This document shows, piece by piece, positions 7,517-59,218 of a stretch of 64,000 nucleotides of DNA; position 1 is the first letter of the stretch; each line of letters opens with the position of its first letter. The notes below the pieces were generated by a model, which was given only the letters and a program-made list of their open reading frames with translations, did no database searches and was not told the origin of the DNA. The DNA comes from Octopus vulgaris. Its lineage: Eukaryota. Location: positions 86,738,001 to 86,802,000 of the forward strand of contig OX597824.1 of NCBI GenBank assembly GCA_951406725.2, written 5' to 3'. Position numbers and translations under genes: made by a program.

Positions 7517-7792
7517 TTGTCCCCCAACATTGCTTTACAACCAATGCTGGTGTGTTTATGTCCCCATAACTTAGCGGTTCAGCAAAAGAGACTGATAGAA
7601 TAAGTACTAGGCTTAGAAAGAATAAGTCCTGGGGTCGATTTGCTCCAGCATGGCCATAGTCAAATGACTGAAACAAGTAAAAGAATAAAAGAATAACATA
7701 TTGTAACCTTGTGCTTTTTTTATACATACTAAACTTTCTGAAATGTTAAGTAAAAACCTGGATTTAATTTTTCTTTCTTTTATCAATTTCAG

Positions 7793-8824
7793 AATCTCTT
7801 GGAAGAAGAAAAAAAACAAATAATGTTAAAAAGCGTCGTAACGAAGCTTACAAATATGAAACAAAATATGGGAAGGCTGTTGTCTAATCTCACAGATGAA
7901 GTTAGAGACATCAACTCCAATGAACTTTATGGCCATCCTAGCTTCAGGGATATTACTCAGGACTGGACAAGGCAAACGTATCCCCAAACGGAAACGTATG
8001 AAGGAAATTACCTGAATGATAATCTTATCAATAACACACCTGCACATACAAATACATTTAATGCTTATCAACAGCCAATTTATTATCCATCGGCTTCCTT
8101 TGAAGCATCCTCTCCTGTAAATGTTTCTGATCAAAAATACGATCAATCTAAAATTTCTTCGAGCTTTAATGGCTTTTATTGCCTTCCTGGATCAAATAAT
8201 CTGGATATCAGTGGAAGTTTCAGTAGCTGCTCTGACATTTCAAGCACGTCTCCCTCCAGTGTTATGTCTGGTTCACAGTATAGTCTTACTAGTTATGATT
8301 CTGCCGGTTCTGAGACTGCTTTTGACTGGAGTGATAACGAGAACTCCCAAACATCCACTTTTGCAAATAACAACACAAATTTTGGTTCGTCATCTTATGT
8401 AAATTACAACATCAATCAGGATGATGTATTTACTGATATATATAACAACATCGACCTTGGTGCACCTGTTGATGTAAGTAATGGTACCAGCTTCAGTAAC
8501 AACATTGACTTTAATGCTTTTCCAAGACTAAACAGCAACATCAACCACGGCGGCACATATACTAATAGAAACGGTGATGGATTTCTTGACAGAATTAGCA
8601 ACTTTAATTTTGGGACTGAAACTGTAAATAACATGCAGTTAGACAACACTGATTTCATTTTAGGGAAATCTAATTCCTGCAATCAAAACATGGACAAAAT
8701 ATTACATCTACAACCCGTTGATGGATCCCCCACTCTGAATGAAAACATTTTATATAAGATTATGGATAAATATCCACCCCAATGTGTAAATACTCATAAC
8801 AATGATCTGCCTTACTTAAAATGA
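7793..8824 (+). CDS. ATF3/Fos-like bZIP, zipper and long S/N-rich acidic C-terminal exon
   Basis: Acceptor tttcag at 7792, in frame with the 341-aa ORF 7799-8824; heptad L/L/M residues near the start. Confidence 0.88.
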   Translation, partial: NLLEEEKKQIMLKSVVTKLTNMKQNMGRLLSNLTDEVRDINSNELYGHPSFRDITQDWTRQTYPQTETYEGNYLNDNLINNTPAHTNTFNAYQQPIYYPSASFEASSPVNVSDQKYDQSKISSSFNGFYCLPGSNNLDISGSFSSCSDISSTSPSSVMSGSQYSLTSYDSAGSETAFDWSDNENSQTSTFANNNTNFGSSSYVNYNINQDDVFTDIYNNIDLGAPVDVSNGTSFSNNIDFNAFPRLNSNINHGGTYTNRNGDGFLDRISNFNFGTETVNNMQLDNTDFILGKSNSCNQNMDKILHLQPVDGSPTLNENILYKIMDKYPPQCVNTHNNDLPYLK

Positions 8825-9254
8825 ATTCTAAAAGTGTCAAATAGTAGGACCTACAGGAAATTTGAACCGAAAACACAGGAAACTATCAATTCCCCTGTTT
8901 AAACCATTTTAACATAATCCACGTTTCCAGCATGGATGAGAATTTAATAGGGACCATTTGCTGTTACAACAGTAAAGGGAATGACTACAAGAAATCTCAC
9001 TAGTCAGATCTGTGGATAATCTAATTGCCAGAGTATTCAATTACCTGACTCCACACATAGTGCCGTCTGACTTGCCCCTTCTGTTGTGGTCAACACTAGG
9101 ACCAGGATCTATGGGTATACAGAAACAGAGTGGACAATGAGGAGAGCACATGTTCAGGCTGCTCCCCTATATCGTTAACTACTTCATGCCAGAGTCTACC
9201 TCATCATCATCATTGTTTTAATGTCCACTTCTCCATGCTTGCATGGGTTGGACA

Positions 9255-10365
9255 GAATCGGTTGAGGCAGATTTTCTATAGCTGAATGGCCTTCCTTTTG
9301 CCAACCCTCACCTGTGCCCAAGTAAGGTAATATTTCACCTGTTTCTTTACCACCCACAAGGGGCTAAACATAGAGGAGACAAACAAGGACAGACAAATGG
9401 ATTAAGTCGATTACATCGACTCCAGTGTGTAACTGGTACTTATTTAATCGACGCCGAAAAGATGAAAGCCAAATTCGACCTCGGAGGAATTTGAACTCAG
9501 AACGTAATGACAGACGAAATATGGCTACGCATTTTGCCTGGCATGCTAACATTTCTGCCAGCTTGCCGCCTTAAAGGTAATATTTCACCATGATCAGAAG
9601 ACTGGAAATGGAGGACACTGCTTGTATGAGGGTGACATTCGTTTACAACTATCACATGAATCTAAGGCAAAGCGAAAGTATCTTACATGTGCATGCGCAC
9701 ACACACATGCATACACATATTAACAAGCTACTTTCACTTTCTATTTACAAAATCTACCCACGACACTTTGGTCAGTCCATGGATGTAGCAGAAGACCTGA
9801 GTCCATGATGGTCAGGAAGTTCATGGAGGACATGGAGTGTGTGAAACAAGAGGTCTATAAGTCGTTCTCATTTGTCCATCTGACGACTTACCTACCTCTG
9901 GTCAGCTCAATCAGGGTTGATTAAAGGTGGTCATACAACAATAACAACTACAACAACAGCAGCTGAGACTATTCAACAAGTACACAAAACTATTTTTCAA
10001 AAAGTACTCCAATATCTTCAAGATACAATCAGAATTATATTATAATAATACAAATCTGAAAATATATGTAAAATAATCAAAGAGAATTTTATATTTATTT
10101 AACAAATTATTTAACTTATATATTTATTTTTATTTATATTGTGTATTAAAATTTCTTCCATAAATAATACATTTCAATGGTTTTTATTTATTTGTTTCAT
10201 CTCACCATACAGGCACAAGTGTAACTGTGGGGTTAAGAGGCTTGCTTTCCAACCAAATGGTCTCGGTTTCAGTCCCACTGTACGGCACTTGGGGCAAATA
10301 TCTACTACTATAACCATGGGCTGTTCAATGCTATGTGAGTTAATTTGGTAGACAGAAAATGAGTG
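9255..10365 (+). repeat. Segment A (3' flank/UTR of the bZIP gene), present as an inverted copy at ~23060-24300
   Basis: Non-TE stretches such as ctacctctggtcagctcaatcagggttgattaaagg match the reverse complement at ~23806-23840. Confidence 0.9.
9342..9575 (-). mobile_element. tRNA-derived SINE (family 'GGCGGCGAGCTGGCAGAAACG')
   Basis: Copies at ~24540-24772, 25070-25455, 38780-39175, 46393-46885 (nested), 47065-47160, 50730-51060 and 57560-57790. Confidence 0.9.
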
Positions 10366-10371
10366 GAAATG

Positions 10372-11071: not shown

Positions 11072-13697
11072 CATATATATAATATTCAATATCTGTACAC
11101 CACACCTAACACTCTATATATATATATATACATACACATGCAAGTATAAGCATGCATACATATACAAACATATATACATACATATGCATACTCACGCACG
11201 CACACACATATATATCTAGCATGCAAAAATTGGTTTTAAAAACTCACTTTTGCATAAATGTAAAAAAACAAAAATACAAAGGATGTCCTTGGGATTTGAA
11301 CCCTCATCTCTAGTGGGCATGTCAGATGTTCTGCCATTAGACTAAAGTGATCTTTATAATTTCCTCATTCATTTTAGGAACTTCATTCTTATCAGCAAGA
11401 ATTGTATGTTTTTGATGTAAGAATATTATAAATTTTTATTAGTGAATCTTGAAGCATATAAAGCTACAAATAATAACATAAGCAACATTTGACTTTTTAC
11501 TATCCAAGAGGGTTTCCCACCCAATATTCACATGCTATTGTAGCAGAGCTACATAATTTAGGCATAGTATTAAGTGATTCGATCTGCTCAGCAAATGAAT
11601 ATATCAATGAGGCAGCTAGCCTCGCTTTGATACAGTAGCCTCGTTCTGAGCTCCTCTGTAGAAACAGCCTGAATTCCTGCCAGGCTTTGATCAAAGACAC
11701 ATGTCTTCTCTGCAGCTCCACACACAATCTCCCACGTGCGACTCACAAGTCTATTCACCTCGACACAAGATATCATCATCATCATCATGACCACCGTTTA
11801 ATGTCCGCTTTCCATGCTAGCATGGGTTGGACGGTTTGACTGAGGGCTGGCGAACCAGATGGCTGCACCAGGCTCCAATCTTGATCTGGCAGAGTTTCTA
11901 CAGCTGGATGCCCTTTCTAATGCCAACCACTCCAAGAGTGTAGTGGGTGCTTTTAGGTGCCACCGGCAAGGGGGCCAAGTCAGGCGGTACTGGCAACGAC
12001 CTCGCTCAAATTTTTTTTACGGATATATGGTTTGTAAACGAAGATATTTTATCACACACACACATTCTCAAAACGACTGTTCTCATTACACACATGGATA
12101 AAATCAAAACTTTCTTTCTATGTAAACACACACGTTTTTGTATCATACTACAGGCTTCCACCACAAAGGGTTTTAGATGGATAGGTGGTATTCCCTCTAA
12201 TGTGACTCTGCTCAGAAGGCTGTAATGTTATCGTGGTAGGAAACCGGTAAAGAAATACATGGATCAAATGTGATAACTTTAAATACGTTTATTGTGGCTA
12301 CACGTATATATACACAACTGAATGACAAATGGAAGTGGTTGATGTACATTTATTCATATATCTTCATGCATCTGCGTGGGTTGTATGCTAGCTGTTAACC
12401 CTGGTGAGGAAAGCTCACGAACAGCGATATATCAGAACTAGTGCAGTGTGTTGGTGCTGTATAGATGTTGTTGATGACGTTGGTTTGTTTCTTTCTTTGT
12501 TGAGTGAAGCGGTCTTCACCCCAGAGCTCGCAAGATCGCGCCTCAGGATTGTCTGTAGTGGGAGAAGTCCGAAACGTGGTCCTTTGCTATCCGTAAGACC
12601 CACAGAAGAGAAAGCAGGTCAACCCCCGACACCGAGAGCATCGACGGATGGATTAATGCGCATCCAGGCTCAGCGGTTGTGTAGGAAGTCGGGGACAAGA
12701 AACAGGAAGAAAGAGTGAGAGAAAGATGGGGCGAAAGAGTACAACAGGTGTTGCCACCACCCCTGCCGGAGCCTTGTGGAGCTTTGTGGAGCTTTAGGTG
12801 TTTTCGCTCAATAAACACACACAACGCCCGGTCTGGGAATCGAAACTGCGATCCTCCGACCGCGAGTCCGCTGCCCTAACCACTGGGCCATTGTGCCTCC
12901 ACGATGTCGTTGGTGAGAGACATCACGAAGATGAAGAGGCTCAAATGATGTTTGGGACAGACTGTCTTACGTGACTTATTTGAGGGTTGTGATTGGTTGG
13001 GTTTCATACTAGCGTGCGATAGAGTAAGAGGCAAATTGCACCAACCCCAACCACTCAGAGTGGTAAACACAGTGGGTTCCAAAACAGCACCCAAAGGTTA
13101 GCAGTTACCTGCTACGTTCGTATGTATTTGTATATTATAGAGAGAGGAAGGTCAATAGAGTTCGCAACAAGGTAAACACAGAATAAACAATATATTTATA
13201 CACAAAAATGTCTTATGGTGATTCGTGAATTGTCGAGTTGTCACGGAAACAGCCGAGTGTTTGTTTTAGATTTTGTCGAGTTATATCGAAGGATTGCTTC
13301 AATCGTCCCTTATTACAAACAAGCGGGACTCAGTACACTGTAAAAATAAAAAGGTTCCGACTGCTGTCAAGCACGCTGTTACCGAATAAATTGGTAAATG
13401 GCACGTTAAACCCAATCATTGCCTCGAGTCCTTATGCGCAGGGTGCGGAAAAGAAATACTAGTCCTTCCGGTTGAGTGTGAGACTTACAAAAATAGAGGT
13501 GAAAATATTTAAATTTGTCATGTTCGTTATAAAGGTGAACTTACACATTTGCACGTGAGCTTATGATGCGCCGATTGTGAAGAAATACCTGATGTGAGAT
13601 TATATGTAGTTCTGACGCACCTTTGTACTATAAACGTCAGAACTGTAAAATCTGTGCTGTGAAAAAGCTGTGTTAGTCCTGGTTTCTGTCGAAATTA

Positions 13698-14645
13698 ATG
13701 ATGTTATTGACAATTTTGGCAGCTGTGGGCACAACAATAATTTTACCCTTGTCGATTCGCTACTTTATGAAAGGAGCCACCTGTACCAGCCCTGTTAAAC
13801 TGGAAGGCAAAACAGTTATTATTACTGGAGGTAACTGTGGAATCGGATTCGAAACAGCCCGTAATTTATTACTACGAGGGGCCCGAGTGATCCTCGCATG
13901 TCGGGACTTAAATAAGGCGAAATCGGCTGCGGAACAATTAAGCGAATTAGGTTCAGGTGTTGTACTTGTTGAAAAACTTGATCTCTCAAGCTTCGATTCC
14001 ATTCGGACATTCTGCAAGAATATTAAGCAACATATCACCTCTTTGGATATCCTTATAAACAATGCGGGTGTTTATTTCCACCCGTATGCTGAGACAGAAG
14101 ATGGCCTGGAAATGCATATGGGCGTCAATTACTTTGGTCCCTTCCTTTTGACACATCTTCTCCTGGAGTTATTAAAGAAGTCTGATTCACCCCGCGTCGT
14201 TTTTGTCGGGAGTGGGATTTACAAATACGGGAAAATCGATTTTAACAACACGATTAGAAAAACATTTTTCCAAAAACACAATGCCTACGGCGACAGTAAG
14301 TTAGCCTGTGCTTTATTTTGCCGTGAATTTAGCAATCGAATGTCAGACACTGATATTAACATATACTATGTTCACCCAGGACCAGTGAACACAGATATAG
14401 GAAGAAACCTTTTTAATTCATTTCTTTGGAAACCAATGCACTATCTTTTCAAATTATTTTCAAAGACTTGCGTAGAGGGTTGTCAAACTGTTGTATATTG
14501 CGCTGTTAGTGAAGAGACGAAAGACCAATCTGGTTACTACTACAGTGAATGCCAGAGAGACGAATGGGCAAATCAAGCCCTGGATAAACAACTTGCTGTA
14601 AAGTTGTGGAACTTCAGCGAAAAAGTTACGGGATTAATCGAATGA
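13698..14645 (+). CDS. Retinol dehydrogenase 11/12/14-like SDR, copy 1 (intronless)
   Basis: 315-aa ORF with N-terminal hydrophobic anchor, TGGNCGIG, LDLS, NNAG, catalytic YGDSK and HPG. Confidence 0.95.
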   Translation: MMLLTILAAVGTTIILPLSIRYFMKGATCTSPVKLEGKTVIITGGNCGIGFETARNLLLRGARVILACRDLNKAKSAAEQLSELGSGVVLVEKLDLSSFDSIRTFCKNIKQHITSLDILINNAGVYFHPYAETEDGLEMHMGVNYFGPFLLTHLLLELLKKSDSPRVVFVGSGIYKYGKIDFNNTIRKTFFQKHNAYGDSKLACALFCREFSNRMSDTDINIYYVHPGPVNTDIGRNLFNSFLWKPMHYLFKLFSKTCVEGCQTVVYCAVSEETKDQSGYYYSECQRDEWANQALDKQLAVKLWNFSEKVTGLIE

Positions 14646-15822
14646 AAATTGTTCTCTCACCAAATTATAAATATAAGGCTACCCTTCTTTTCTGTGGAAT
14701 AATTAAAAAAAATAATAATAACGAAAGAAGAAAGACTCTCGGATGCAATTAATGTAAAAAAAATCTTGTTCGTCACAAAATTAAAGAAATTCTATGAGAG
14801 TTTCGTTTTGAAGAAATACTGATTCGATGTTGGAAGGTGTGAAGGATCTTTTATTTTATAGAATAGAACCGTTGCAGGGAGCGAAGAAAGTATCTTGTAT
14901 TTTAATGTATGTTTCGTTTTCTGAATCAAATCGACGGCAGATTAATTATTGATGTTACATGACAATTAAGAAAATATTTATTTGTTTGTTTAATATCGAT
15001 CATGATCAGTGATATTGGAATATCGAGGACTGGCTTTAGTGCTTGAATGAAAACATTTTTCGAACCAAATATTTGACAGTCCGTGTTGAAGTAATTAATG
15101 TTCGTGCGAATGTGTTGAGAATCTCAACATCTGTAGCTTTCTGGTTGTTTTCGTATCGTCGTGTTTTTAAGAAATCGGAATTTTCTCTTTTTAATTAGTT
15201 TAAAGAAAAGCATTCCTGCCGGGACCAAAAACCTAATCCTAATAACTCTTTACCAATAATAAGTTTTTCAGTAATTGTATTAAATGCAGTTAATTACTGC
15301 CGCATGAAGAAAAGGCAAAACTAAATGTGACCGTCAAGTATTTGTTTTGAAAAGTTTTCGTGTTGGATTTTAAATCCAGGATTCCCTAATTATTTAATGA
15401 GGGTCAGCGTAAGAAGATCACTGATCGCAAATTGTAACACAAATATATAGTTTAATGAACATCATTTTCAAAACTTTCTCACACGCCTTTCTTGAAGTGA
15501 GGTACAACAGTTTCCAGGCGTACCTACACAAATGTACCTCGCCCCATCGACTTTGTTTTCACATAACTTTCTCCTGTACGTATGTGTTCGTCACAGCATT
15601 TTCTTTTTTTACGTTAAATTCCGATATAATCGTAATTTACAGCATCTGAAAGTTATTTATACAAATCTTCATTAAAAAAATATCGTGTCTATATGGTTTT
15701 TATATCATATCTATATCGTTGCATAATCATGTCTGTATTGGTAAGATGGAATTCAAAATCGGATTCAGTAACTTAAATTTCCAATGTTCCAGTGCAAAAA
15801 TACAAAATCAATTAGCTTAGAA

Positions 15823-15987
15823 GGTACTATTTAAGAAGAGTGGTCCCGGTGCGCGCACTCGCGCAATCGCACTAGCTAGTCGTGACTACCTAGCAAAGTA
15901 AATAAAATACAAAATTAATAATTTTTTTACACAAAGTAAATAAAACACAAAAACACAAAGTAAAGATCGACTAGTCACGACTAGCTA
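15823..15987. mobile_element. Truncated MITE (mirror of 25991-26189)
   Basis: Has only one TIR (GGTACTATTTAAGAAGAGTGGTCCCGGTGCGCGC) and is fused to the next element. Confidence 0.85.
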
Positions 15988-17706: not shown

Positions 17707-19087
17707 GTGCGTTATACTAATACATCTGTTTGTTTTGTACAGCACCTGTCTTCGTCTTTTGTTTTTTTCGTAAACTCTCCCTATATATGTATGTGTGTGT
17801 GTGTGCGTACCTGAAAATACAAGTTTCAACAAATTGACTTCAGGACTTATTTTTTAAAGATAAGTACTTATCGTATTGGTCTCTTTGCTAAACTACTAAG
17901 TTACGCTGGCATAAACACACTGACACTGTTTACCAAGCGGTGATGGGGACAAACATAGTCACTAAGACACACACATATGACGGGCTTCCTTCAGTTGTTG
18001 TCTAACAAATCCTCTCACAAGGCTTTGGTCAACCCAAAACTATAGCAGAAAACACTTGTCCAAGGTGCCATGCAGTGGGACTGAACCCAGAACTGTTTGG
18101 TCAGGAAGCAAACTTCTTAATACACAGCCATGCCAGCGCTTATGTTTTATGTTAAATTCTTGCATTTTTCACAATTTTACTTTTTCTACAACATTACATA
18201 TTATGATAAGACAAGTACTTTCATGTTTTCTGCAATCTTCAGGTTCATTTAGTAGCAGTATTAAACAACAGCTATGTTTCACAATTGATAACTGTAGTAG
18301 AATGCTTGAAATTCTCCTTTAAATACTTTCCAGCAGGCTCCAGCAAGTTGTACCATAAATCTTACGAACTGTATTTTAATCAACCAAAGTACTGCTTAGA
18401 TGTCGCAACTAAGTGGGTGTGATAGCATTCTATTCATAAAAACATTTTGACCAATCAGCATACAGCGTAGCAATTATGCCAACCCAGTTGACGTTTACAG
18501 CACTTACTCATAGAAATACTTTAGTCCTCTATAAAGGATTTGGTGATATTCAGATGTTGAAGAACACTTGATACTGTAAACGCTATCCTTGGTTTCAGCG
18601 AATTTAATATTACTATTACTGTTCAAATTTCTAAGTTCAAATTCTGCTGAGGGCGACTTTACCTTTCATCTTTAATAATGGAAGGCAAGATTTACGATAT
18701 TGGAAGAATATCGTCCCCTTCCATCATTCATTTTGTTCTTTATGTAGTTCAGGCTTCCGGCAGGCAAAGAGAAAAGACTTCAAAGTCACTATATATATAT
18801 ATAGGTTCAGCAAAATTTAGATTCAGATGAATATGGTACTTAATTTAAAGGCACCAGAATTTGGTATGGTATTATCCATATAAATCAAATGGGGTGATTA
18901 TAATCAAAATAAGCAACAAGGATATCCAAGGTAGTGTAGTACAATCGTTTCATGCTACTTCATTTTATTAAACAATGCAAGTATTACATCAGTTTTAAAA
19001 TGTAGAGCAATCTTCAGTCACATATAGAATTTTTTAATTAAATAGACAATGTACATTTTTATACTTATTCTGTTTGCCATATATATA

Positions 19088-20369
19088 CGAGGGGCGTTCA
19101 ATATGTAATGCCCCTGACCCACTTCCCATTGCAGTAGAGCAACGAAACTTGGCACAGTTATTAATCTTTTTCTACATAGGAACCACCCAGAGTTACGCAT
19201 TTCTCCCATCGTTTGATGCAGCTCTGGAGACCGCTTTTGTAGAAGACCCCAGCTTGGTCCTCCAACCACGACGTGACTTCAGAAATCAAGGCTGCATCAT
19301 CTGGGAAACGCTTTCCTCTCAAAAACAACTTCATGGCTGGGAAGAGGTGAAAATCAGAGGGTGCAAGGTCAGGAGAGTAGGGGGGATGGAGGAGGAGTTC
19401 ATAGCCGCACGCCTGTGCTTCTGATCTGGCGACACGCGAGTTGTGGACCGGAGTGTTGGCCTGCAGGTAGAGGATGCCTTTGCTGATCTTGCCCCGCCTC
19501 TTGATTTTGATAGCTTCTCTTAATTTCCTCAAAAGTGAAGCATAATAGGCTCCTGTAATTGTGGTACCCTTTGCCAGGAAATCTGTCATCACTACTCCGT
19601 CCTGGTCTCAGAAGATTGTGAGCATGACCTTGCCAGCGGAGGGCTGCACCCTTGCTTCTTTGGAGGAGGTGAATCATGGTGTTTCCACTGCATTGACTGG
19701 GCTTTGCTCTCTGGATCATAGTGATGGACGCAGGTTTCATCCTGTGTAGTCAGTCTTTTGAAAAATTTTGACTCATCTTCTTGGCACATCTCCAAATTCA
19801 TCCTCGAGCACTCGACGCATTCTTTGCTTCTGGAAAGGTGTGAGCAACCTGGGAATCCATCTGGCAGATACCTTTTGCATATGCAAATGGTTATGAATGA
19901 TAGTTTCCACAGACCCGGTACTAATCTTGACCTCATGAGCTATTTGGCGAATAGTTATGCGTTGATCTTCCAAAATGGCAGCCTCAACTTGACGGACAGA
20001 TGCCTCATCAATGGCAGAGGTGGGACGACCAGATCTGGGTGTTGTTTCCGACCATGTTTGAATTCACGATGCTAGTGTTTTACAAGGCCATATGATGGGG
20101 CATCATCACCATGAGTTACTTTCATTTCATCAAAAGTCTCCAGTCGTGTGCGTCCTTTCAAATATAAAAACCGGATCACTGCTCGACACTCAACAGGCTC
20201 CATTTCACACTTGACTCAGTTCAAACACCTGTAAATCAGACACCACAATTAGTTCAGAGCTGTAATTTGCCACTTAATCTGTAGAGATATAAATAATTGC
20301 ACATGCAAACTTTCAGCTAGATCAAACAATTGCAAGTGGGTCAGGGGCATTACTTATTGAACGTCCCTC

Positions 20370-25774: not shown

Positions 25775-26320
25775 TTTTATTGACAGAATAAAAAGTCGAT
25801 TGGAATTTCTAAAATAATTGATTTTGAATTTTTGCATTGGAACATAGCAAATTTAAGTTACTGAATCCGATTTTGAATTCCATCATAACAATACAGACAT
25901 GATATGCAACGATATAGATATGATATAAGAACCATAAAAAAAAAATGGATTTTATTGGCAGAATAAAAAGTCGATTGAAATTTCTAAGGTAGTACTATTT
26001 AAGAAGAGTGGTCCCGGTGCGCGCACTCGCGCATCCGCGATAGCTAGTCGATCTTTACTTTGTGTTTTTGTGTTTTATTTACTTTGTGTAAAAAAATTAT
26101 TAATTTTGTATTTTATTTACTTTGCTAGGTAGTCACGACTAGCTAGCGCGATTGCGCGCGCACCGGGACCACTCTTCTTAAATAGTACCTTCTAAGCTAA
26201 TTGATTTTGTATTTTTGCACTGGAACATTGTAAATTTAAGTTACTGAATCCGATTTTGAATTCCATCTTACCAATACAGACATGATTATGCAACGATATA
26301 GATATGATATAAAAACCATA
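25775..26320. repeat. ~180-bp tandem duplication whose second unit carries a MITE
   Basis: cagaataaaaagtcgatt…gatatagatatgatata occurs twice. Confidence 0.8.
25991..26189. mobile_element. Complete ~200-bp MITE (Merlin-like)
   Basis: ~33-bp TIRs with TSD ttctaaggt/ttctaagct; the empty site is visible in the tandem copy at ~25806. Confidence 0.85.
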
Positions 26321-27365
26321 TAGACACGATATTTTTTTAATGAAGATTTGTATAAATAATTTTCAGATGCTGTAAATTACGATTATATCGGAATTTAACA
26401 TAAAAAAAGAAAATGCTGTGACGAACACATACGTACAGGAGAAAGTTATGTGGAAACAAAGTCGATGGGGCGAGGTACATTTGTGTAGGTACGCCTGGAA
26501 ACTGTTGAACCTCACTTAAAGAAAGTCCTGTGAGAAAGTTTTGAAAATGATGTTCATTAAACCATATATTTGTGTTACAATTTGTAATCAGTGATCTTCT
26601 TACGCTGACCCTAATTAAATAATTAGGGAATCCTGGATTTAAAATCCAACACGAAAACTTTTCAAAACAAATACTTGACGGTCACATTTAGTTTTGCCTT
26701 TTCTTCATGCGGCAGAATTTAACTGCATATAATACAATTACTGAAAAACTTATTATTGGTAAAGAGTGATTAGGATTAGGTTTTTTGGTCTCGGCAGAAA
26801 TGGTTTTCTTTATACTAATTAAAAAGAGAAAATTCCGATTTCTTAAAAACACGACGATACGAAAACAACCAGAAAGCTACAGATGTTGAGATTCTCAACA
26901 CATTCGCACGAACATTAATTACTTCCAACACGGACTGTCAAATATTTGGTTTGAAAAATGTTTTCATTCAAGCAGTAAAGCCAGTCCTCGATATTCCAAT
27001 ATCAATGATCATGATCGATATTAAACAAACAAATAAATACTTTCTTAATTGTCATGTAACATCAATAATTAATCTGCCGTCGATTTCATTCAGAAAACGA
27101 AACATACATTAAAATACAAGATACTTTCTTCGCTCCCTGCAACGGTTCGATTCTATAAAATAAACGATCCTTCACACCTTCCAACATCGAATCAGTATTT
27201 CTTTAAAACGAAACTCTCATAGAATTTCTTTAATTTTGCGACGAACAAGATTTTGTTACATTAATTGCATCCGAGAGTCTTTCTTCTTTCGTTATTATTA
27301 TTATATAATTATTCCACAGAAAAGAAGGGTAGCCTTATATTTATAATTTGGTGAGAGAACAATTT

Positions 27366-28313
27366 TCATTCGATTAATCCCGTAACTTTTTCGCTGAAGT
27401 TCCACAACTTTACAGCGAGTTGTTTATCCAGGGCTTGATTTGCCCATTCGTCTCTCTGGCATTCACTGTAGTAGCAACCAGATTGGTCTTTCGTCTCTTC
27501 ACTTACAGCACAATATACAACAGTTTGACAACCTTCTTGGCAATTCTTGAAAAGTAATTTGAAAGCAGAGACCTTTTGTATCAGAGGATATGAATTCAAA
27601 ATGTTCCTACTTATATCTGTGTTTACTATTCCTGGGTGAACATAGTATATGTTGATATTAGTGTCTGACATTCGATTGCTAAATTCACGGCAAAATAAAG
27701 CACATGCTAACTTACTGTCACAGTAGGCACCGTGTTGATGGAAAAACTCCGGTTTATTCATGTTGTCAAAATCGATTTTCCCGTATTTGTAAATCCCACT
27801 CCCGACAAAAACGACGCGGGGTGAATCAGACTTCTTTAATAACTCCAGTAGAAGATGTGTCAAAAGGAAGGGACCAAAATAATTGACGCCCATATGCATT
27901 TCCAGGCCATCTTCTGTCTCAGCATACGGGTGGAAATAAACACCCGCATTGTTTATAAGGATATCCAAAGAGGTGATATGTTGCTTAATATTCTTGCAGA
28001 ATGTCCGAATGGAATCGAAGCTTGAGAGATCAAGTTTTTCAACAAGTACAACACCTGAACCTAATTCGCTTAATTGTTCTGCAGCCGATGTCGCCTTATT
28101 TAAGTCCCGACATGCGAGGATCACTCGGGCCCCTCGTAGTAATAAATTACGGGCTGTTTCGAATCCGATTCCACAGTTACCTCCAGTAATAATAACTGTT
28201 TTGCCTTCCAGTTTAACAGGGCTGGTACAGGTGGCTCCTTTCATATAATAGCGAATCGACAAAGGTAAAATGATTATTATGGGTACTACAACTGCCAAAA
28301 TTGTCAACAACAT
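27366..28313 (-). CDS. Retinol dehydrogenase 11/12/14-like SDR, copy 2 (intronless)
   Basis: 315-aa ORF with TGGNCGIG, NNAG, YCDSK and HPG; inverted paralog of 13698-14645. Confidence 0.95.
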   Translation of the reverse strand: MLLTILAVVVPIIIILPLSIRYYMKGATCTSPVKLEGKTVIITGGNCGIGFETARNLLLRGARVILACRDLNKATSAAEQLSELGSGVVLVEKLDLSSFDSIRTFCKNIKQHITSLDILINNAGVYFHPYAETEDGLEMHMGVNYFGPFLLTHLLLELLKKSDSPRVVFVGSGIYKYGKIDFDNMNKPEFFHQHGAYCDSKLACALFCREFSNRMSDTNINIYYVHPGIVNTDISRNILNSYPLIQKVSAFKLLFKNCQEGCQTVVYCAVSEETKDQSGCYYSECQRDEWANQALDKQLAVKLWNFSEKVTGLIE

Positions 28314-29674
28314 CTTTAATATACTGAGATTTCGACAGAAACCAGGATTAACACAGCTTTTTCACAGCACAGCTTTCACAGTTCTGACGTTTATTGTACA
28401 AAGGTGCGTCAGAACTACATATCATCCCACAACATGTAATTCGACAAGGTCGGCGCATCGTAAGCTCACGTGCCTAATGATTAAGTTCATCTTTATAACG
28501 AACAAGACAAATTATATTTTCATTTCTATTTTTCTGAGTCACGGCTGGTAAGACAAGCATTTCTTTTCAGCAGCCTGAGCATAAAAACTGGAGGCGATGT
28601 TTGAGTTTAACGTACCATTTCAGTTTCTTGTAAGCTCTCTTGACAGCAGTCGGAGATTTTTTTTAAGGTGTCCTGCGGCCCGCTTTTTTGTGATTAGGGA
28701 CAATTCAAGTTTGTTGTCGTTGTTATTATTTAACATGAGAAAGTTTACCTGTATTAGAATAAAATTGTTTATCTTTCGTTATATGTACCCCATGTTTTGT
28801 GTTATTATATCCCCTCTCTATTCAGGCTTTATGCCTATATAATAAAGATTTCTAGAATAAAATTATGTTGCTCTTCATCATTATCATCATCATTTTACGT
28901 CTGCTTTTCATACTTGCGTGGCTTGTTGAAATATTCTATATCTAATAATCCTGTTATTAGGGTGTCGCTTAAAAAAAAGTATTTCGGTTATAGATGGATG
29001 AATGCAGAACAGCAAAAACTAAGATAAATGACCGATCTATTTATATAACTAGGTATTTTAATTTAAAAAAATATAACTTGAAAATACAAAATATACTTGT
29101 AAAACTGGGATAATGAAATGAAGTTTTAAAATCTTATAAACCTTCGAGACACCATGAAACAATACTTTTTTAGACTAAGGGATCTTGAAGCACATAAAAC
29201 TATAAATAATAGCATGTAAATAAATATTGGGTTGGGAAACCTTCGAGGATAGAAAAAAAAGTCAAAGGCTGCTTATGCTTTAATTTATAGCTTTATGTGC
29301 TTCGAGATTCACTATTCCAAAAAGGAATTATTTCACATTTTCTTGAGAGTTTATAGTATTCTTATGATATCAAAAACATAGAATTCTTGCTGCTAAGAAT
29401 GAAGTTTCTAAAATAAATCAGGAAATTAAAATGATTGCTTTAGTCCAATGGTAGAACATCTGGTATTCCTACAAGAGATGAGAGTTCATATGCATCCTTT
29501 GAAATATTTTTTCCCCCTTTTCCAAATGGGAGTTTTTCAAACCAGTTCTTACATGCTATCATTGTAACGCTTTATCTGCTTCAAGTTCTGCTATTCTAAA
29601 AAAATTTTTTAAAGTTATCTTTGCTTTAATGACTTTTTTTGTTATCAAGTTCAAGAAGGCAGCTGTTTATGAAA

Positions 29675-52844: not shown

Positions 52845-53320
52845 TACCGTAAATCCTCGAGTGTAACCCGCATTTTTCCCCAGATTTTAAAGGTCAAAAT
52901 CCCTAGTGTGTACTATATACGAGGTTAAAAATGAAAAGTATTTTCTAACAATGTCCGAGTCTCTATTTGCTGTCCGGCAATGTTTATTCGGACGCATTTT
53001 GTGATGCCAGGCGCAAAAATACCTTAAGCTAAGCCTGAAAGCAATGAAGTCATAAAAGAATCATCCATAACTTGCAGTAAGCAACATTTATTAAAATAAA
53101 AGTTTTCAGAACACAGAATAACATGTAACAAAAACAATTTGCAAACATATTTACATTCCCATATAACAGTTAAGAACATCACCGTTATTGTATTACGTAT
53201 GCGCGGAAGTGTTTGTTCGACTAGGTGCTGCTGGCTTAATTATGCATGACTCAAGTTAGAGAAGGGGTGTGTATTCTACACAAGGTTTAGGTTTCTCAGA
53301 GGTACAACCCCCTAAAAATC
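52845..53320. mobile_element. Tigger/pogo-type non-autonomous element (partial)
   Basis: Starts TA-CCGTAAATCCTCGAGT; the other end is not found before the satellite. Confidence 0.5.
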
Positions 53321-53389
53321 CCCTGTTTATTGGCTAGATACTTTTTTTTAAACCAACAGTGTGAAGCGCCTTTGCAGGTTTCATGAAAA

Positions 53390-54858
53390 AAGCACCCATG
53401 CCAGTGGCACATGTAAAGCACCCATGCCAGTGCCACATGTAAAGCACCCATGCCAGTGCCACATGTAAAGCATCCGTGCCAGTGCCACATGTAAAGCACC
53501 CATGCCAGTGACACATGTAAAGCACCCATGCCAGTACCACATGTAAAGCACCCATGCCAGTGCCACATGTAAAGCACCCATGCCAGTGACACATGCAAGG
53601 CACCCTTGCCAGTATCACTTGTAAAGCACCCATGCCAGTGTCACTTGTAAAGCACCCATGCTAGTGCCACATGTAAAGCACTCATGCTAATGCCACATGT
53701 AAAACACCCGTGCCAGTGCCACGTGTAAAGCACCCATGCCAGTGCCACATGTAAAGCACCCATGCCAGTGCCACATGTAAAGCATCCGTGCCAGTGCCAC
53801 ATGTAAAGCACCCATGCCAGTGCCACATGTAAATCACTCATGCCAATTCCACATATAAAGCACCCATGCCAGTGCCACATGTAAATCACTCATGCCAGTG
53901 CCACGTGTAAAGCACCCATGCCAGTCCCACATGTAAAGCACCCATGCCAGTGCCACATGTAAAGCACCCATGCCAGTCCCACATATAAAGCACCCATGCC
54001 AGTGCCACATGTAAATCACTCATGCCAGTGCCACGTGTAAAGCACCCATGCCAGTCCCACATGTAAAGCACCCATGCCAGTGCCACATGTAAAGCACCCA
54101 TGCCAGTGCCACATGTAAAGCACCCATGCCAGTCCCACATGTAAAGCACCCATGCCAGTGCCACATGTAAAGCACTCATGCCAATTCCACGTATAAAGCA
54201 CCCATGCCAGTGCCACATGTAAAGCACCCATGCCAGTTCCACATGTAAATCACCCATGCCAGTTCCACATGTAAATCACCCATGCCAGTTCCACATATAA
54301 AGCACCCATGCCGGTGCCACATGTAAATCACTCATGCCAGTGCCACGTGTAAAGCACTCATGCCAGTGCCACATGTAAAGCACCCATGCCAGTGCCACAT
54401 GTAAAGCACCCATGCCGGTGCCACATGTAAATCACTCATGCCAGTGCCACATGTAAGGCACCCATGCCAGTGCCACATGTAAAGCACCCATGCCAGTGCC
54501 ACATGTAAAGCACCCATGCCAGTGCCACATGTAAATCACTCATGCCAGTGCCACATGTAAGGCACCCATGCCAGTCCCACATGTAAAGCACCCATGCCAG
54601 TGCCACATGTAAGGCACTCATGCCAATTCCACATATAAAGCACCCATGCGAGTGCCACATGTAAAGCATCCATGCCAGTGCCACATGTAAAGCATCCATG
54701 CCAGTGCCACATGTAAAGCACCCATGCGAGTGCCACATGTAAGGCACCCATGCCAGTGCCACATGTAAAGCACTCATGCCAATTCCACATATAAAGCACC
54801 CATGCGAGTGCCACATGTAAAGCACCCATGCGAGTGCCACATGTAAGGCACCCATGCC
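53390..54858. repeat. 26-bp minisatellite (AAAGCACCCATGCCAGTGCCACATGT)n, roughly 55 copies
   Basis: Directly visible; continues into the (GAT)n-family retroposon body at ~54915-55065. Confidence 0.95.
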
Positions 54859-55594
54859 TGTTCCTTGTATCATGTGCCGGTGCACATATAAAGCACTTGT
54901 GTCAGTGTCATCTAAAGAGCACCCAGTACACACTGCAAAGTGGTTGGCATTAGGAAGGGCATCCAACCATAGAAACCATATCAAGAGAGACAATTGTAGC
55001 CTGGGTAGCTCTCCGGTTGACCAGCTCCTGTCAAACCATCCAACCCATGCCAGCATAGAAAAGAGACTTTGAATGATGCTAGTGATGAACTGTGTGTATA
55101 AATACATATTGAAGACTCCTAATAAGTTTTACACAGAAGCCATTGTGAACCCTGTGAAACAGTGCTTCTATTTGCATGAACATTCTTTTTTCCAAAAACA
55201 CCTAAAAGCTCAACTAGGCTCCGGCAGGGGGTGGTGGCGACCCCTCTTGTACTCTTTCACCACAACTTTCTTTCACTCTCTCTTCCTGTTTCCTGAGTAA
55301 CCCTGTGATGGACTGACGTCCCGTCCGGCTGGGGGGGAACACATACGCCACAGAAACTGGGAAACCGGACCCATGAGCTTGGTTAGGCTTGAAAAGGGAG
55401 CTAGGTTCTTAACTGCACTGATGGAAGATGTCCATGGTCTTTCCTTTAGAGATTGTACTGTCAGGCTTCACTATTGAATGTGCTTTAGAAACTTGAAAGA
55501 ATTCTTCAGAGTTGTTTCAAATTTGTGTGTACAATACAAAAGTATGAAACTCAAAAATAATCTTTATATAATAATAGGACAGTGGCTACTATAT

Positions 55595-57069: not shown

Positions 57070-57198
57070 TTCCAGTTACTTTGTCCTATTTTTACTGTAA
57101 TTTTTTCCAGTTACTTTGTCCTATTTTTACTGTAATTTTTTCCAGTTACTTTGTCCTATTTTTACTGTAATTGTTTCCAGTTACTTTGTCATGTTGCA
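57070..57198 (+). repeat. 35-bp tandem repeat (4 AG sites), copy of the exon-10 acceptor array
   Basis: TTCCAGTTACTTTGTCCTATTTTTACTGTAATT(T/G)T units. Confidence 0.9.
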
Positions 57199-57294
57199 TT
57201 TAAATTTCTTTTTTTTTTCTGTTCAAATTTTAATTGTCATGGCTTTTGTATTTAATGCAGTAATATTTTTTCATATTTCGTTTATGCTTTCCAG

Positions 57295-57438
57295 AAATGT
57301 TGTCTCAACATGGTCCTCTGGAACTGGAGGGGCTGGAATTTTTGGTGCTCTCTCTTATGCAGGACTCACCATGCTTAATCTCTCCCCTCGTCACACGATT
57401 CTGGTAATGCTTGTCATTCCTGTCATTTTTGCATTCAG
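57295..57438 (+). CDS. CLN3: Battenin exon 9
   Basis: WSSGTGGAGIFGALSYAGLT hallmark; 144 nt. Confidence 0.95.
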
Positions 57439-59218
57439 GTAAGTCTCTCTTTTCTCTAGACCCCTGTCTAGGGATCACATTTGAATCCCGGTTAACATTA
57501 AAAATAATCCTTTATTACTGATAGTAAAAAACCTATGAAGTCAAAAAGTAAATGCATAAGGCAGGGAGCTGGCAGAAACGTTTGCATGCCGGGCGAAATG
57601 CTTAGCGGTATTTCGTCTGCCGTTACGTTCTGAGTTCAAATTCCACCGAGGTCGACTTTGCCTTTCATCCTTTCGGGGTCGATAAATTAAGTGCTTGTTA
57701 TGCACTGGAGTTGATATAATCGACTTAATCCGTGTGTTGTCCTTGCTTGTCCTCTCTGTGTTTAGCCCCTTGTGGGTAGTAAAGAAATAAGAAGCAAATG
57801 CATGTCTTGTCATAATCATTGTCATCCCATAATTGCGTGTGGCTGTGTGGGTGAGTGAGAGGTGATTGAGTGATGAGCAAGGATAAGTTGAATCATTAAT
57901 AATTGCAACTACACTATTTATTCACATTTAGTAATAGCTGAGGACTATACTATTGATTTTTTTTTTTTTTTTTAAGTGCCACCTTGACTGGCTTCTGTGC
58001 TGGTGGCACATAAAAAGCACCAATCAATCATGGCCGCTGCCAGCCTCCCCTGGCACCTGTGCTGATGGCACGTAAAAAGCACCCACTACACTCACGGAGT
58101 TGTTGGCATTAGGAAGGGCATCCAGCTGTAGAAACACTGCCAGATCAGATTGGAGCCTGGCGCAGCCTCCTGGTTTCCCAGACCCCGGTCAAACCGTCAA
58201 ACCCATGCTAGCACGGAAAACAGACGTTAAACGATGATGATGATGACCACAGGAGGATTAAAGGCAAAGTAAATTCTGACTGGGTTTAACCCTTCTGTAA
58301 CCATGTTTCTAAAGAAATTCATTCCCCTCCTCTCTGTTAGGAGGGCACAAGCACTTTCTTATACATGTACCCACACAATGAGAACTTCTACTCAATCACA
58401 AGGCTTTGGTAAGCCCAAGGCTATATCAGAGGACACTTGCCCAAGGTGCCATGCAATGGGACTGAACCCAGAACCATGTGGTTGGGAGCATAAATGAGAA
58501 ATGATTTAGTAAAATAACTGACTTATTTATTATTTAGCTGATGTTTGGAACACAATTAACTAAAGATTCTTACAATGGATAGTTATCATTTAAATACAAA
58601 CACTTTAAAATAAGTAGGCGCAGGAGTGGCTGTGTGGTAAGTAGCTTGCTTACCAACTACATCGTTCCAGGTTCAGTCCCACTGTGTGGCACCTTGGGCA
58701 AGTGACTTCTACTATAGCCTCAGGCCAACCAAAGCCTTGTGAGTGGATTTGGTAGACGGAAACTGAAAAGAAGCCCGTCATATATATGGATATATATACA
58801 TGTGTGTGTGTGTTTGTGTCTGTTTGTCCCCCCAACATCGGCTTGACAACCGATGCTGGTGTGTTTACATCCATGAAATGTAGCGGTTCGGCAAAAGAGA
58901 CCGATAGAATAAGTACTAGGCTTACAAAGAATAAGTCCTTGGGTCGATTTGCTCGACTAAAGGTGGTGCTCCAGCATGGCTGCAGTCAAATGACTGAAAC
59001 AAGTAAAAAAAAAATTTTTAAAAAAAAAGGTTTTCTATCATGAAACCAGAGGCATTTTCAGGTGAGTTGGTGCCAAACACATTAAATTTAAAATATAGAA
59101 GGACTCAACTAAATACTGAAGAGCATTCAGTCTGGCGCTCGATTGGTTTTTGGTTGATTCACTGCCCTCAAATATTGTAATATTAATTGTTAATCTAAAT
59201 ATGGTAAACTAAATCTGT

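What the first reader, a model, noticed from the sequence alone, without database searches (positions are those of the whole stretch)
14242..14490. Divergence islands confined to the SDR substrate-specificity segments
Seen: about 160 residues of the Rossmann core differ at one position (AKS/ATS), and the C-terminal ~50 aa differ at one position. Two short blocks are almost unalignable: NNTIRKTFFQKHNAYGDSK vs DNMNKPEFFHQHGAYCDSK, and PGPVNTDIGRNLFNSFLWKPMHYLFKLFSKTCVEG vs PGIVNTDISRNILNSYPLIQKVSAFKLLFKNCQEG. Established: the segment before YxxxK and the loop after the PG motif shape the SDR substrate pocket. Inference: selection protects two specificities (for example different retinoid isomers or aldehydes) from homogenisation, possibly relevant to cephalopod retinoid or visual-cycle chemistry.
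Basis: partly seen in the sequence, partly recalled or inferred. Interest (0 to 1): 0.8.

Follow-up and report, generated by a model that had tools for sequence, protein, structure and literature searches.

The report
Octopus enzyme twins differing at pocket
Two neighbouring octopus genes for a retinol-dehydrogenase-like enzyme are nearly identical, likely because they keep copying DNA from each other, yet differ sharply in two short stretches predicted to flank the substrate pocket; this known signature likely marks selection for two different jobs, and no link to vision is shown.

Summary
Two single-exon RDH14-like SDR genes (A 13701-14645 +; B 28313-27366 -) lie in a 2.7-kb inverted repeat. 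The core differs at 1 of 158 residues and the 3' flank at 2.5%, while codons 182-197 and 228-259 differ at 10 of 16 and 17 of 32. Corrections: the blocks align without gaps, and the N-terminal anchor and 5' flank also diverge. O. sinensis and O. bimaculoides paralogs show the core grouping by species (6 shared sites), which points to gene conversion. Island 1 groups by paralog across about 34 My (4 sites). Island 2 holds only to O. sinensis. Island 2 maps onto the pigment-binding helix of LPOR, the closest ligand-bound fold; island 1 ends on the catalytic helix. Neutral simulations gave both islands in 0 of 3,191 matched replicates. Against: dN is about dS in the islands, and both segments evolve fast between orthologs too. 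Best reading: a selection-maintained divergence peak under concerted evolution, as in human red/green opsins (0.6). Substrates are unknown and the retinal-isomer or vision idea is unsupported.

The parts
13297..15974 (+). Arm A of a 2.7-kb inverted repeat (92.5% identical to 28709-26044) holding gene A and its flanks
   Evidence: blastn and pairwise alignment
26044..28709 (-). Arm B of the inverted repeat, holding gene B; the two genes converge
13698..14645 (+). Gene A: single coding exon, 314-315 aa (in-frame ATGs at 13698 and 13701), RDH14-like SDR7C; residue numbers in this report count from 13701
   Evidence: (adh_short E 3e-34)
27366..28313 (-). Gene B: single coding exon, 315 aa paralog, intact frame and catalytic residues
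13297..13700 (+). 5' flank, not recently homogenised (51 mismatches in 381 aligned nt, 14 gaps)
13701..13769 (+). N-terminal hydrophobic helix (predicted membrane anchor), a third divergent block: 5 aa plus 1 extra codon, pS 0.35, pN 0.12
13770..14243 (+). Homogenised Rossmann core, codons 24-181 (TGxxxGxG 42-49, R68, NNAG 120-123, N143, S171): 4 of 474 nt differ
14244..14291 (+). Island 1 of copy A, codons 182-197: loop and first turns of the catalytic helix, includes Y196; trans-species A type
27720..27767 (-). Island 1 of copy B (closer to the outgroups than A's)
14292..14381 (+). Nearly identical bridge of 30 codons with K200 and the HPG motif; 3 of 90 nt differ; holds a site (14366) shared by both paralog contigs of run X20
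14382..14477 (+). Island 2 of copy A, codons 228-259: loop after HPG and helix 241-253, aligned to LPOR C309 and helix alpha-10
27534..27629 (-). Island 2 of copy B
14478..15974 (+). Homogenised C-terminus and non-coding 3' flank (33 mismatches in 1,320 aligned flank nt; at most 5 in any 48 nt)

Best explanation
Two intact, intronless RDH14-like short-chain dehydrogenase genes are near-identical in core and 3' flank, likely through repeated gene conversion, and selection likely rejects conversions that would overwrite two segments predicted to flank the active site, so the enzymes would differ in substrate preference or membrane docking. Shown: the sequence mosaic, intact N143-S171-Y196-K200 in both, grouping by species in the core and by paralog in island 1. 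Inferred: the duplication predates the O. vulgaris-group / O. bimaculoides split (about 34 Mya in the cited preprint); copy A is the derived one in island 1; both proteins are membrane-anchored, NADPH-preferring reductases of lipophilic aldehydes or ketones, as SDR7C enzymes are. The protection is partial: island 2 appears to have been exchanged or rebuilt in the O. bimaculoides lineage. The substrates are unknown.
For: Synonymous differences are 3 of 115.5 sites in the core and 33 of 1,320 nt in the 3' flank, against 7.5 of 28.8 in the islands (p=3e-4 against core plus C-terminus) and 6 of 17.3 in the N-terminus, so the copies are old and only partly homogenised. Site patterns: core 6 by-species and 0 by-paralog; island 1 0 and 4 (M184T, E188T, H191Q, Q192K); NJ trees switch topology accordingly. 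Both O. sinensis copies share C176, 17 nt upstream of island 1. In run X20 both paralog contigs share 14227 G and 14366 T, on either side of island 1. Columns equally variable in 113 non-octopod homologs (entropy over 2.5) differ between A and B at 14 of 22 inside the islands and 2 of 38 outside. Neutral simulations: both islands with a clean bridge in 0 of 3,191 replicates matched for overall divergence (of 11,300 run); 1,080 of 1,200 neutral peaks included one in the 3' flank, which here has none. AF2 model (pLDDT 94.5) matches LPOR 7JK9 (Foldseek TM 0.80; VIA Z 34.2, rmsd 2.1 A, 276 aligned). Of 14 LPOR pigment-contact residues named in PMC11110527, 10 align to a residue here and 5 of those differ between A and B, all in island 2.
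Against: No excess of amino-acid change: 35.5 of 115 nonsynonymous against 7.5 of 29 synonymous sites (p=0.82). With no conversion and near-neutral loops, island 1 reached its observed height in 8 of 100 and island 2 in 18 of 100 runs, so height alone needs no positive selection. Orthologous divergence is not flat: A vs O. bimaculoides A 7/147 core, 5/16 island 1, 14/32 island 2; window vs O. sinensis island 2 5/64 against core 1/294, p=8e-4. The islands are the most variable stretches of the family after the N-terminus (entropy 2.0 and 2.2 against 1.2). Island 2 of O. bimaculoides A is B-like at 7 sites and A-like at 3. One island alone arose neutrally in 61 of 3,191 replicates, the island positions were chosen after seeing the data, and edge effects inflate the flank peaks. 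Island 1 positions 182-189 are unaligned to LPOR, the alpha-10 alignment is low-confidence, and no coordinates were available to measure contacts. Only three named species with both paralogs, at protein level only.
Confidence: 0.6

Rival explanations
1. Neutral escape: the two segments are the tolerant loops of this family, diverged first by drift, and their own mismatch load now blocks conversion; the enzymes are functionally equivalent and the pair is kept for dosage or for different expression driven by the diverged 5' flanks.
For: dN about equal to dS in the islands; fast ortholog evolution there; highest family entropy; island heights reachable without selection; 5' flank and N-terminus also unconverted; island 2 not held in O. 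bimaculoides.
Against: The unconstrained 1.3-kb 3' flank should escape first but is 97.5% identical; 0 of 3,191 matched neutral replicates gave both islands; 0 of 62 matched replicates of the first grid gave a 16-in-48 peak; equally variable columns elsewhere are homogenised (2 of 38); island 1 is unchanged between the window and O. sinensis in both copies (0/16 each).
Confidence: 0.2
2. Selection acts against chimeras rather than for two specificities: the islands co-evolved as compensating surfaces (fold stability, membrane docking or partner binding), so partial conversions give poorer enzymes while both copies reduce the same substrates.
For: Both islands are the lowest-confidence, likely mobile parts of the catalytic domain, apart from one loop near 81-90 (pLDDT 82, 80-83 in A; 86, 75-79 in B). 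Helical hydrophobic moment of 237-254 is 0.40 in A and 0.07-0.09 in B, and island 1 net charge is +3 against -1 (crude calculation). In LPOR the region before the catalytic Tyr holds an oligomer interface as well as the pigment loop (PMC11930087).
Against: O. bimaculoides A combines an A-like island 1 with a B-like island 2, suggesting mixed forms are viable if that model is right. A/B differences fall on positions aligned to LPOR ligand contacts.
Confidence: 0.12
3. One reading: A and B are retinal reductases tuned to different isomers (all-trans versus 11-cis or 13-cis) in cephalopod retinoid or visual chemistry.
For: Family precedent only: human RDH11-14 reduce all-trans-retinal with NADPH, and RDH12 and mouse RDH14 also act on cis isomers (PMC7022914, passages).
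Against: The octopod clade is about 45-47% identical to vertebrate RDH11-14, sits on a long branch (0.88) outside the RDH11/12/13 clade, and SDR7C activity cannot be read from the name. The cephalopod cycle is described as rhodopsin-retinochrome-RALBP (PMC7910522). An 'RDH14' transcript, not matched to these genes, is reported as upregulated in O. maya oviducal gland (PMC8976471).
Confidence: 0.07
4. Assembly or polishing artefact: alleles joined as an inverted duplicate, or paralog cores collapsed to one consensus.
For: Gene models at this locus are unstable: three B-type predictions stop at residue 198 and one O. bimaculoides model fuses B to A.
Against: Both types exist as adjacent accessions in O. 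sinensis. Both island types occur as separate contigs in runs X14 and X20. The two O. bimaculoides cores differ from each other at 6 of 158 positions, so they are not collapsed.
Confidence: 0.02

Closest known systems
Human long- and middle-wave opsin genes (divergence peak in exon 5 under gene conversion; Teshima and Innan model, as reviewed in PMC3924837)
   Same: Neighbouring paralogs homogenised within species, with a narrow block that groups by paralog across species and lower divergence in non-coding DNA than in the protected coding block.
   Different: For opsins the functional sites are proven and introns bracket the peak. Here the gene is intronless, there are two peaks 90 nt apart, the copies are inverted, and no function has been measured.
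Drosophila CG18281/CG17637 pair (Pre28; PMC2588116)
   Same: Two clusters of paralog-specific (type-N) sites among species-specific (type-C) sites in a coding region, improbable in neutral simulation.
   Different: There orthologous divergence is flat; here it peaks in the same segments, so relaxed constraint is not excluded.
Tigriopus GOT1p1/GOT1p2 (PMC3728101, abstract only)
   Same: Invertebrate metabolic enzyme paralogs with islands of divergence amid conversion, and rare transfer of the divergent regions, as island 2 of O. bimaculoides may show.
   Different: Different enzyme class, with population-level sampling that is lacking here.
SDR7C retinaldehyde reductases RDH11-RDH14 (closest label RDH14-like)
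   Same: N-terminal hydrophobic anchor, Gly-rich motif, N-S-Y-K tetrad, basic residue after beta-B; about 45-47% identity.
   Different: Octopod-specific long branch; no introns in the coding region; activity untested.
Light-dependent protochlorophyllide oxidoreductase (PDB 7JK9)
   Same: Closest ligand-bound fold (TM 0.80); island 2 corresponds to C309 and the mobile pigment-binding helix alpha-10; R235 corresponds to NADPH-binding R317.
   Different: About 30% identity, a photoenzyme with a longer insertion before the catalytic Tyr; used only as a map of the pocket.

Membership tests
Classical SDR | TGxxxGxG and NNAG motifs, Rossmann fold | tested here: met
   Residues 42-49 and 120-123 in both copies; Pfam adh_short E 3e-34 and 5e-35; AF2 models pLDDT 94.5 and 93.8
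Classical SDR | Catalytic tetrad N-S-Y-K | tested here: met
   N143, S171, Y196, K200 identical in A and B; N143, Y196, K200 invariant and S171 nearly so in 121 sequences
SDR7C (RDH11-14 family) | Closest homologs and motifs of SDR7C | tested here: met
   Top named hits are RDH11/12/13/14-like; Gly-motif matches the consensus listed in PMC9859523 except A44G, which is specific to the window and O. sinensis copies
SDR7C (RDH11-14 family) | NADP(H) preference | tested here: inconclusive
   Sequence sign only: R68 invariant and R235 aligned to LPOR R317; the basic-residue rule is recalled; no assay
SDR7C (RDH11-14 family) | N-terminal membrane anchor | tested here: met
   Helix 2-24 in the model; best 19-residue hydropathy 2.2 and 2.9 at the N-terminus; prediction only
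RDH14 (SDR7C4) orthologs | Clade with vertebrate RDH14 | tested here: inconclusive
   32-sequence tree, midpoint root: octopod clade joins bivalve RDH14-like proteins (98/97) and lies outside the RDH11/12/13 clade (99/98), but no supported clade with vertebrate RDH14
Retinaldehyde reductases / visual-cycle enzymes | Activity on retinal isomers and expression in eye | not testable with these tools
   No assay possible; run metadata give no tissue
Selection-maintained divergence peak under gene conversion | Species-specific shared (type-C) sites around the peak | tested here: met
   6 in the core for O. bimaculoides vs window, 1 (C176) for O. sinensis; 14227 and 14366 in run X20
Selection-maintained divergence peak under gene conversion | Cluster of paralog-specific (type-N) sites kept across species: island 1 | tested here: met
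   4 sites across all three species, 10 across window and O. sinensis; p=0.005
Selection-maintained divergence peak under gene conversion | Cluster of type-N sites kept across species: island 2 | tested here: inconclusive
   14 sites across window and O. sinensis, but O. bimaculoides A is B-like at 7 and A-like at 3; the B copy's C-terminal half there is unknown
Selection-maintained divergence peak under gene conversion | Flat orthologous divergence (control against relaxed constraint) | tested here: not met
   Ortholog divergence peaks in both islands
Selection-maintained divergence peak under gene conversion | Excess of nonsynonymous differences in the peak | tested here: inconclusive
   pN 0.31 vs pS 0.26, p=0.82 with 29 synonymous sites; pN exceeds the N-terminal pN (p=0.007) and the 5' flank rate (p=4e-5)
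Selection-maintained divergence peak under gene conversion | Pattern improbable under neutral conversion | tested here: met
   0 of 3,191 matched replicates with both islands; 61 with one; simple fixation-level model, positions chosen post hoc
Selection-maintained divergence peak under gene conversion | Shared polymorphism outside, fixed differences inside the peak | not tested
   Needs phased population reads; only contigs of 4 of 24 listed runs were laid

The most novel reading that the evidence does not exclude
An intronless octopus enzyme pair behaves as a natural two-module specificity switch: conversion tracts, some perhaps under 25 nt, scrub everything around and between two pocket-lining segments, while copy A has held a new island 1 for over 30 million years and now reduces a different lipophilic carbonyl, possibly a different retinal isomer, than copy B; rare island transfers create new chimeric enzymes, as in O. 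bimaculoides.
Probability: 0.12. Interest if true: 0.65.

Novelty: new member of a known kind. Interest (0 to 1): 0.4.

Why it matters
If right, evolution has already done the domain-swap experiment. The two enzymes share a scaffold and differ at 27 residues in two segments, which makes the specificity determinants of an RDH11-14-type enzyme directly testable with four constructs; a sequence search of the PDB found no animal RDH11-14 structure at E 1e-20 or better. It would also add a molluscan, intronless case to the short list of divergence peaks under gene conversion. The phenomenon itself is known, and without a substrate or tissue the case says nothing yet about cephalopod vision.

Tried and rejected
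Whole-genome search: no genome held for this window, so synteny and copy number were not checked. No third copy in the window. Extra cephalopod sequences: a C-terminal region search gave 5 proteins, no new octopod; a search of short proteins gave none; no squid or cuttlefish sequence was among the 120 hits listed of 623. Sequencing runs: no RNA holder listed on record; 'RNA?' labels are guesses, so expression is not claimed. In runs X1 and X5 the B-type 5' end and A-type islands were laid but no B-type island contig; contigs drop variants, so this is not used as evidence. No joint was seen at the donor-like site after codon 198 where three gene models stop. Homodimer prediction of copy A gave no answer (score 0.00, alignment not used, controls not folded). 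Residue-level pocket distances could not be measured: model coordinates are not on the script machine. Positive selection by dN/dS: not shown. A compensated frameshift in island 1, suggested by the gapped DNA alignment, was rejected because the gap-free codon alignment and the O. bimaculoides intermediates need only point changes. Literature: no paper on this pair in searches (8 papers; passages read in 2; 7; 7; 2); one search gave nothing useful on RDH12 pocket residues. The library lacks most subscription papers, and no supplements were read. Earlier findings of the scan: none.

Full report
What is there. The window is repeat-rich animal DNA. It holds two long single-exon frames, A (13701-14645, +) and B (28313-27366, -), both Pfam adh_short. 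They lie in one inverted repeat, 13297-15974 against 28709-26044, 92.5% identical. No third copy is in the window. A named O. vulgaris prediction (P0125) equals copy B from residue 23 to 198, including the rare T74, so the window is likely O. vulgaris. No whole genome was held.

The observation. Codon alignment gives: codons 1-23, 5 aa and 12 of 69 nt different plus one extra codon; 24-181, 1 aa and 4 of 474 nt; 182-197, 10 aa and 16 of 48 nt; 198-227, 1 aa and 3 of 90 nt; 228-259, 17 aa and 27 of 96 nt; 260-314, 1 aa and 4 of 165 nt. The non-coding 3' flank differs at 33 of 1,320 nt and the 5' flank at 51 of 381 with 14 gaps. None of 20,000 permutations reached the clustering. The blocks do align without gaps, and the N-terminus is a third divergent block.

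Is the identity due to conversion? Synonymous differences are 3 of 115.5 sites in the core, 7.5 of 28.8 in the islands and 6 of 17.3 in the N-terminus (islands against core plus C-terminus p=3e-4). Purifying selection cannot keep silent sites and 1.3 kb of flank alike, so the copies are old and partly homogenised. Relatives confirm this. O. sinensis has both types (P0121, P0126), and O. bimaculoides has an A-like (P0122) and a B-like (P0123, partial; P0002) protein. In residues 24-170 both O. bimaculoides copies share 6 residues against both window copies, and no site groups by paralog. In island 1, 4 sites group by paralog across all three species and none by species (p=0.005); NJ trees of the segments switch accordingly. 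Both O. sinensis copies share C176. In run X20 the A-type and B-type contigs both carry 14227 G and 14366 T; the second site lies between paralog differences at 14357 and 14382, which implies a very short tract or a parallel change. A preprint gives 34 Mya for the O. bimaculoides split and 2.5 Mya for O. sinensis (10.1101/2023.05.16.540928, passages). In island 1 copy A is the derived one: 9 of 16 differences from the unnamed outgroup P0003 against 3 of 16 for B (p=0.07), including loss of N185, found in 84% of 113 non-octopod homologs.

Island 2 is less stable. It is kept between the window and O. sinensis (2/32 and 3/32 ortholog differences, 14 paralog-specific sites). O. bimaculoides A, however, is B-like at 7 sites and A-like at 3. 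P0002 equals P0122 from residue 198 on and its later version is partial, so the true C-terminal half of O. bimaculoides B is unknown and P0002 was not used for counts there. Rows P0125, P0006 and P0001 were left out of the site counts as truncated or duplicate models.

Do the islands line the pocket? The AF2 model of A (pLDDT 94.5) puts island 1 on the loop 177-191 and the start of the catalytic helix 192-213, and island 2 on the loop after HPG and helix 241-253; B is similar. The top Foldseek match is LPOR 7JK9 with NADPH and pigment (TM 0.80; VIA Z 34.2, rmsd 2.1 A, 276 aligned, tied with two apo or unliganded entries). By the HMMER alignment, read by hand, island 2 covers C309 and helix alpha-10 (316-338), described as a mobile substrate-binding element (PMC11930087, passages). 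Of 14 pigment-contact residues named in PMC11110527 (passages), 10 align to a residue here. Five differ between A and B (228, 234, 238, 243, 246), and five do not (125, 193, 225, 233, 250). Position 197 aligns to K277. The alignment in this helix is low-confidence, residues 172-189 are unaligned, and I had no coordinates, so the pocket role is inferred for island 2 and weaker for island 1. A crude calculation shows A's helix 237-254 more amphipathic than B's (0.40 against 0.07) and island 1 charge +3 against -1, so membrane docking may differ too.

Selection or neutral escape? For selection: columns equally variable in the family differ at 14 of 22 inside the islands and 2 of 38 outside. In fixation-level simulations with generous neutrality at variable codons, 62 of 2,400 replicates matched core and flank and none had a 16-in-48 peak. 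In a wider grid with late-starting conversion, seeds and tract stops, 3,191 of 11,300 replicates matched overall divergence; 1,200 had a peak, 1,080 of them with one in the 3' flank; 61 had one island without a flank peak; none had both with a clean bridge. Against: the positions were chosen after the fact and edge effects inflate flank peaks; dN does not exceed dS (p=0.82); without conversion the heights are reached in 8 and 18 of 100 runs; and orthologous divergence peaks in the same segments, failing the control used for the Drosophila case (PMC2588116, three passages). I put selection for two functional states at 0.6, neutral escape at 0.2, selection against chimeras at 0.12, the retinal-isomer reading at 0.07 and artefact at 0.02.

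How it likely works. Inferred from family knowledge: both proteins are membrane-anchored, NADPH-preferring reductases of lipophilic carbonyls, as RDH11-14 are (PMC7022914, passages). A 32-sequence tree places the octopod clade on a long branch beside bivalve RDH14-like proteins, outside the RDH11/12/13 clade. Lack of coding introns is compatible with a retroposed origin, proposed for human RDH14 (PMC9859523, passages), and also lets conversion tracts run through the gene. Conversions in scaffold and flank are tolerated and fix; those crossing the islands would be removed because they erase a second substrate preference or docking mode. Nothing ties this to vision. A review describes cephalopod chromophore regeneration by retinochrome and RALBP (PMC7910522, passages), and no tissue data were available.

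Comparison and novelty. The pattern is the known divergence peak under gene conversion: human red/green opsins and colobine RNases (PMC3924837, passages and first part of section 11), Drosophila CG18281/CG17637 and copepod GOT1 (PMC3728101, abstract). I found no paper on this octopus pair in searches of a library that lacks most subscription journals; no supplements were read, and genome-paper supplements could list the pair. Earlier scan findings: none. Verdict: real, a new member of a known kind, cleanly testable, with selection likely but not proven. Interest 0.4.

Noticed in passing
window 9252-10369 (+) vs 24306-23071 (-): A second inverted duplicate block (about 6-9% mismatches) lies upstream of A and downstream of B in each gene's direction. 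With the fused B-then-A model in O. bimaculoides (P0124), this suggests an ancestral direct tandem B-X-A later rearranged to the inverted layout.
   Followed up: partly
window 11217-11539 vs 29558-29208: Older upstream remnant of the duplication, 49 mismatches in 313 aligned nt with 9 gaps, similar to the 5' flank level.
   Followed up: partly
P0006 (CAI9732554.1): A third, B-type O. vulgaris prediction on a different, 84.7-Mb contig; its N-terminus, K74 and V172 match O. sinensis B rather than window B. Extra copy or misplaced haplotype.
   Followed up: partly
window 14292-14302 and 27709-27719: A splice-donor-like site right after island 1; three public B-type models (P0125, P0006, P0123) stop at residue 198. 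No joint was seen in the four runs laid on copy A.
   Followed up: partly
window 13666-13795 and islands, runs X1 and X5: B-type 5' contigs were laid with A-type islands but no B-type island contig. It may be contig simplification, or B loci carrying A islands; unresolved and not used as evidence.
   Followed up: no
window 15810-15974 and 26190-25985, 25936-25807: The homogenised tract ends inside a small element with terminal inverted repeats (MITE-like, label from inspection); behind it in B lies a second, 7% diverged copy of 15692-15822.
   Followed up: partly
window 14352: All four runs read A where copy A has G (D218 vs N), so this A/B difference is private to the window's haplotype or an error.
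   Followed up: no
window 7754-8824 (+): A 356-codon open frame rich in Asn and Ser with no Pfam match, likely a long exon of a neighbouring gene.
   Followed up: no
window 57101-57442 (+): Exon of a CLN3 (battenin) gene.
   Followed up: no
window 19038-20075 (-): Broken mariner-type transposase between the two SDR genes (Transposase_1); a possible agent of the inversion, untested.
   Followed up: no
window 53296-55128: Long 26/52-nt tandem repeat array giving repetitive open frames.
   Followed up: no
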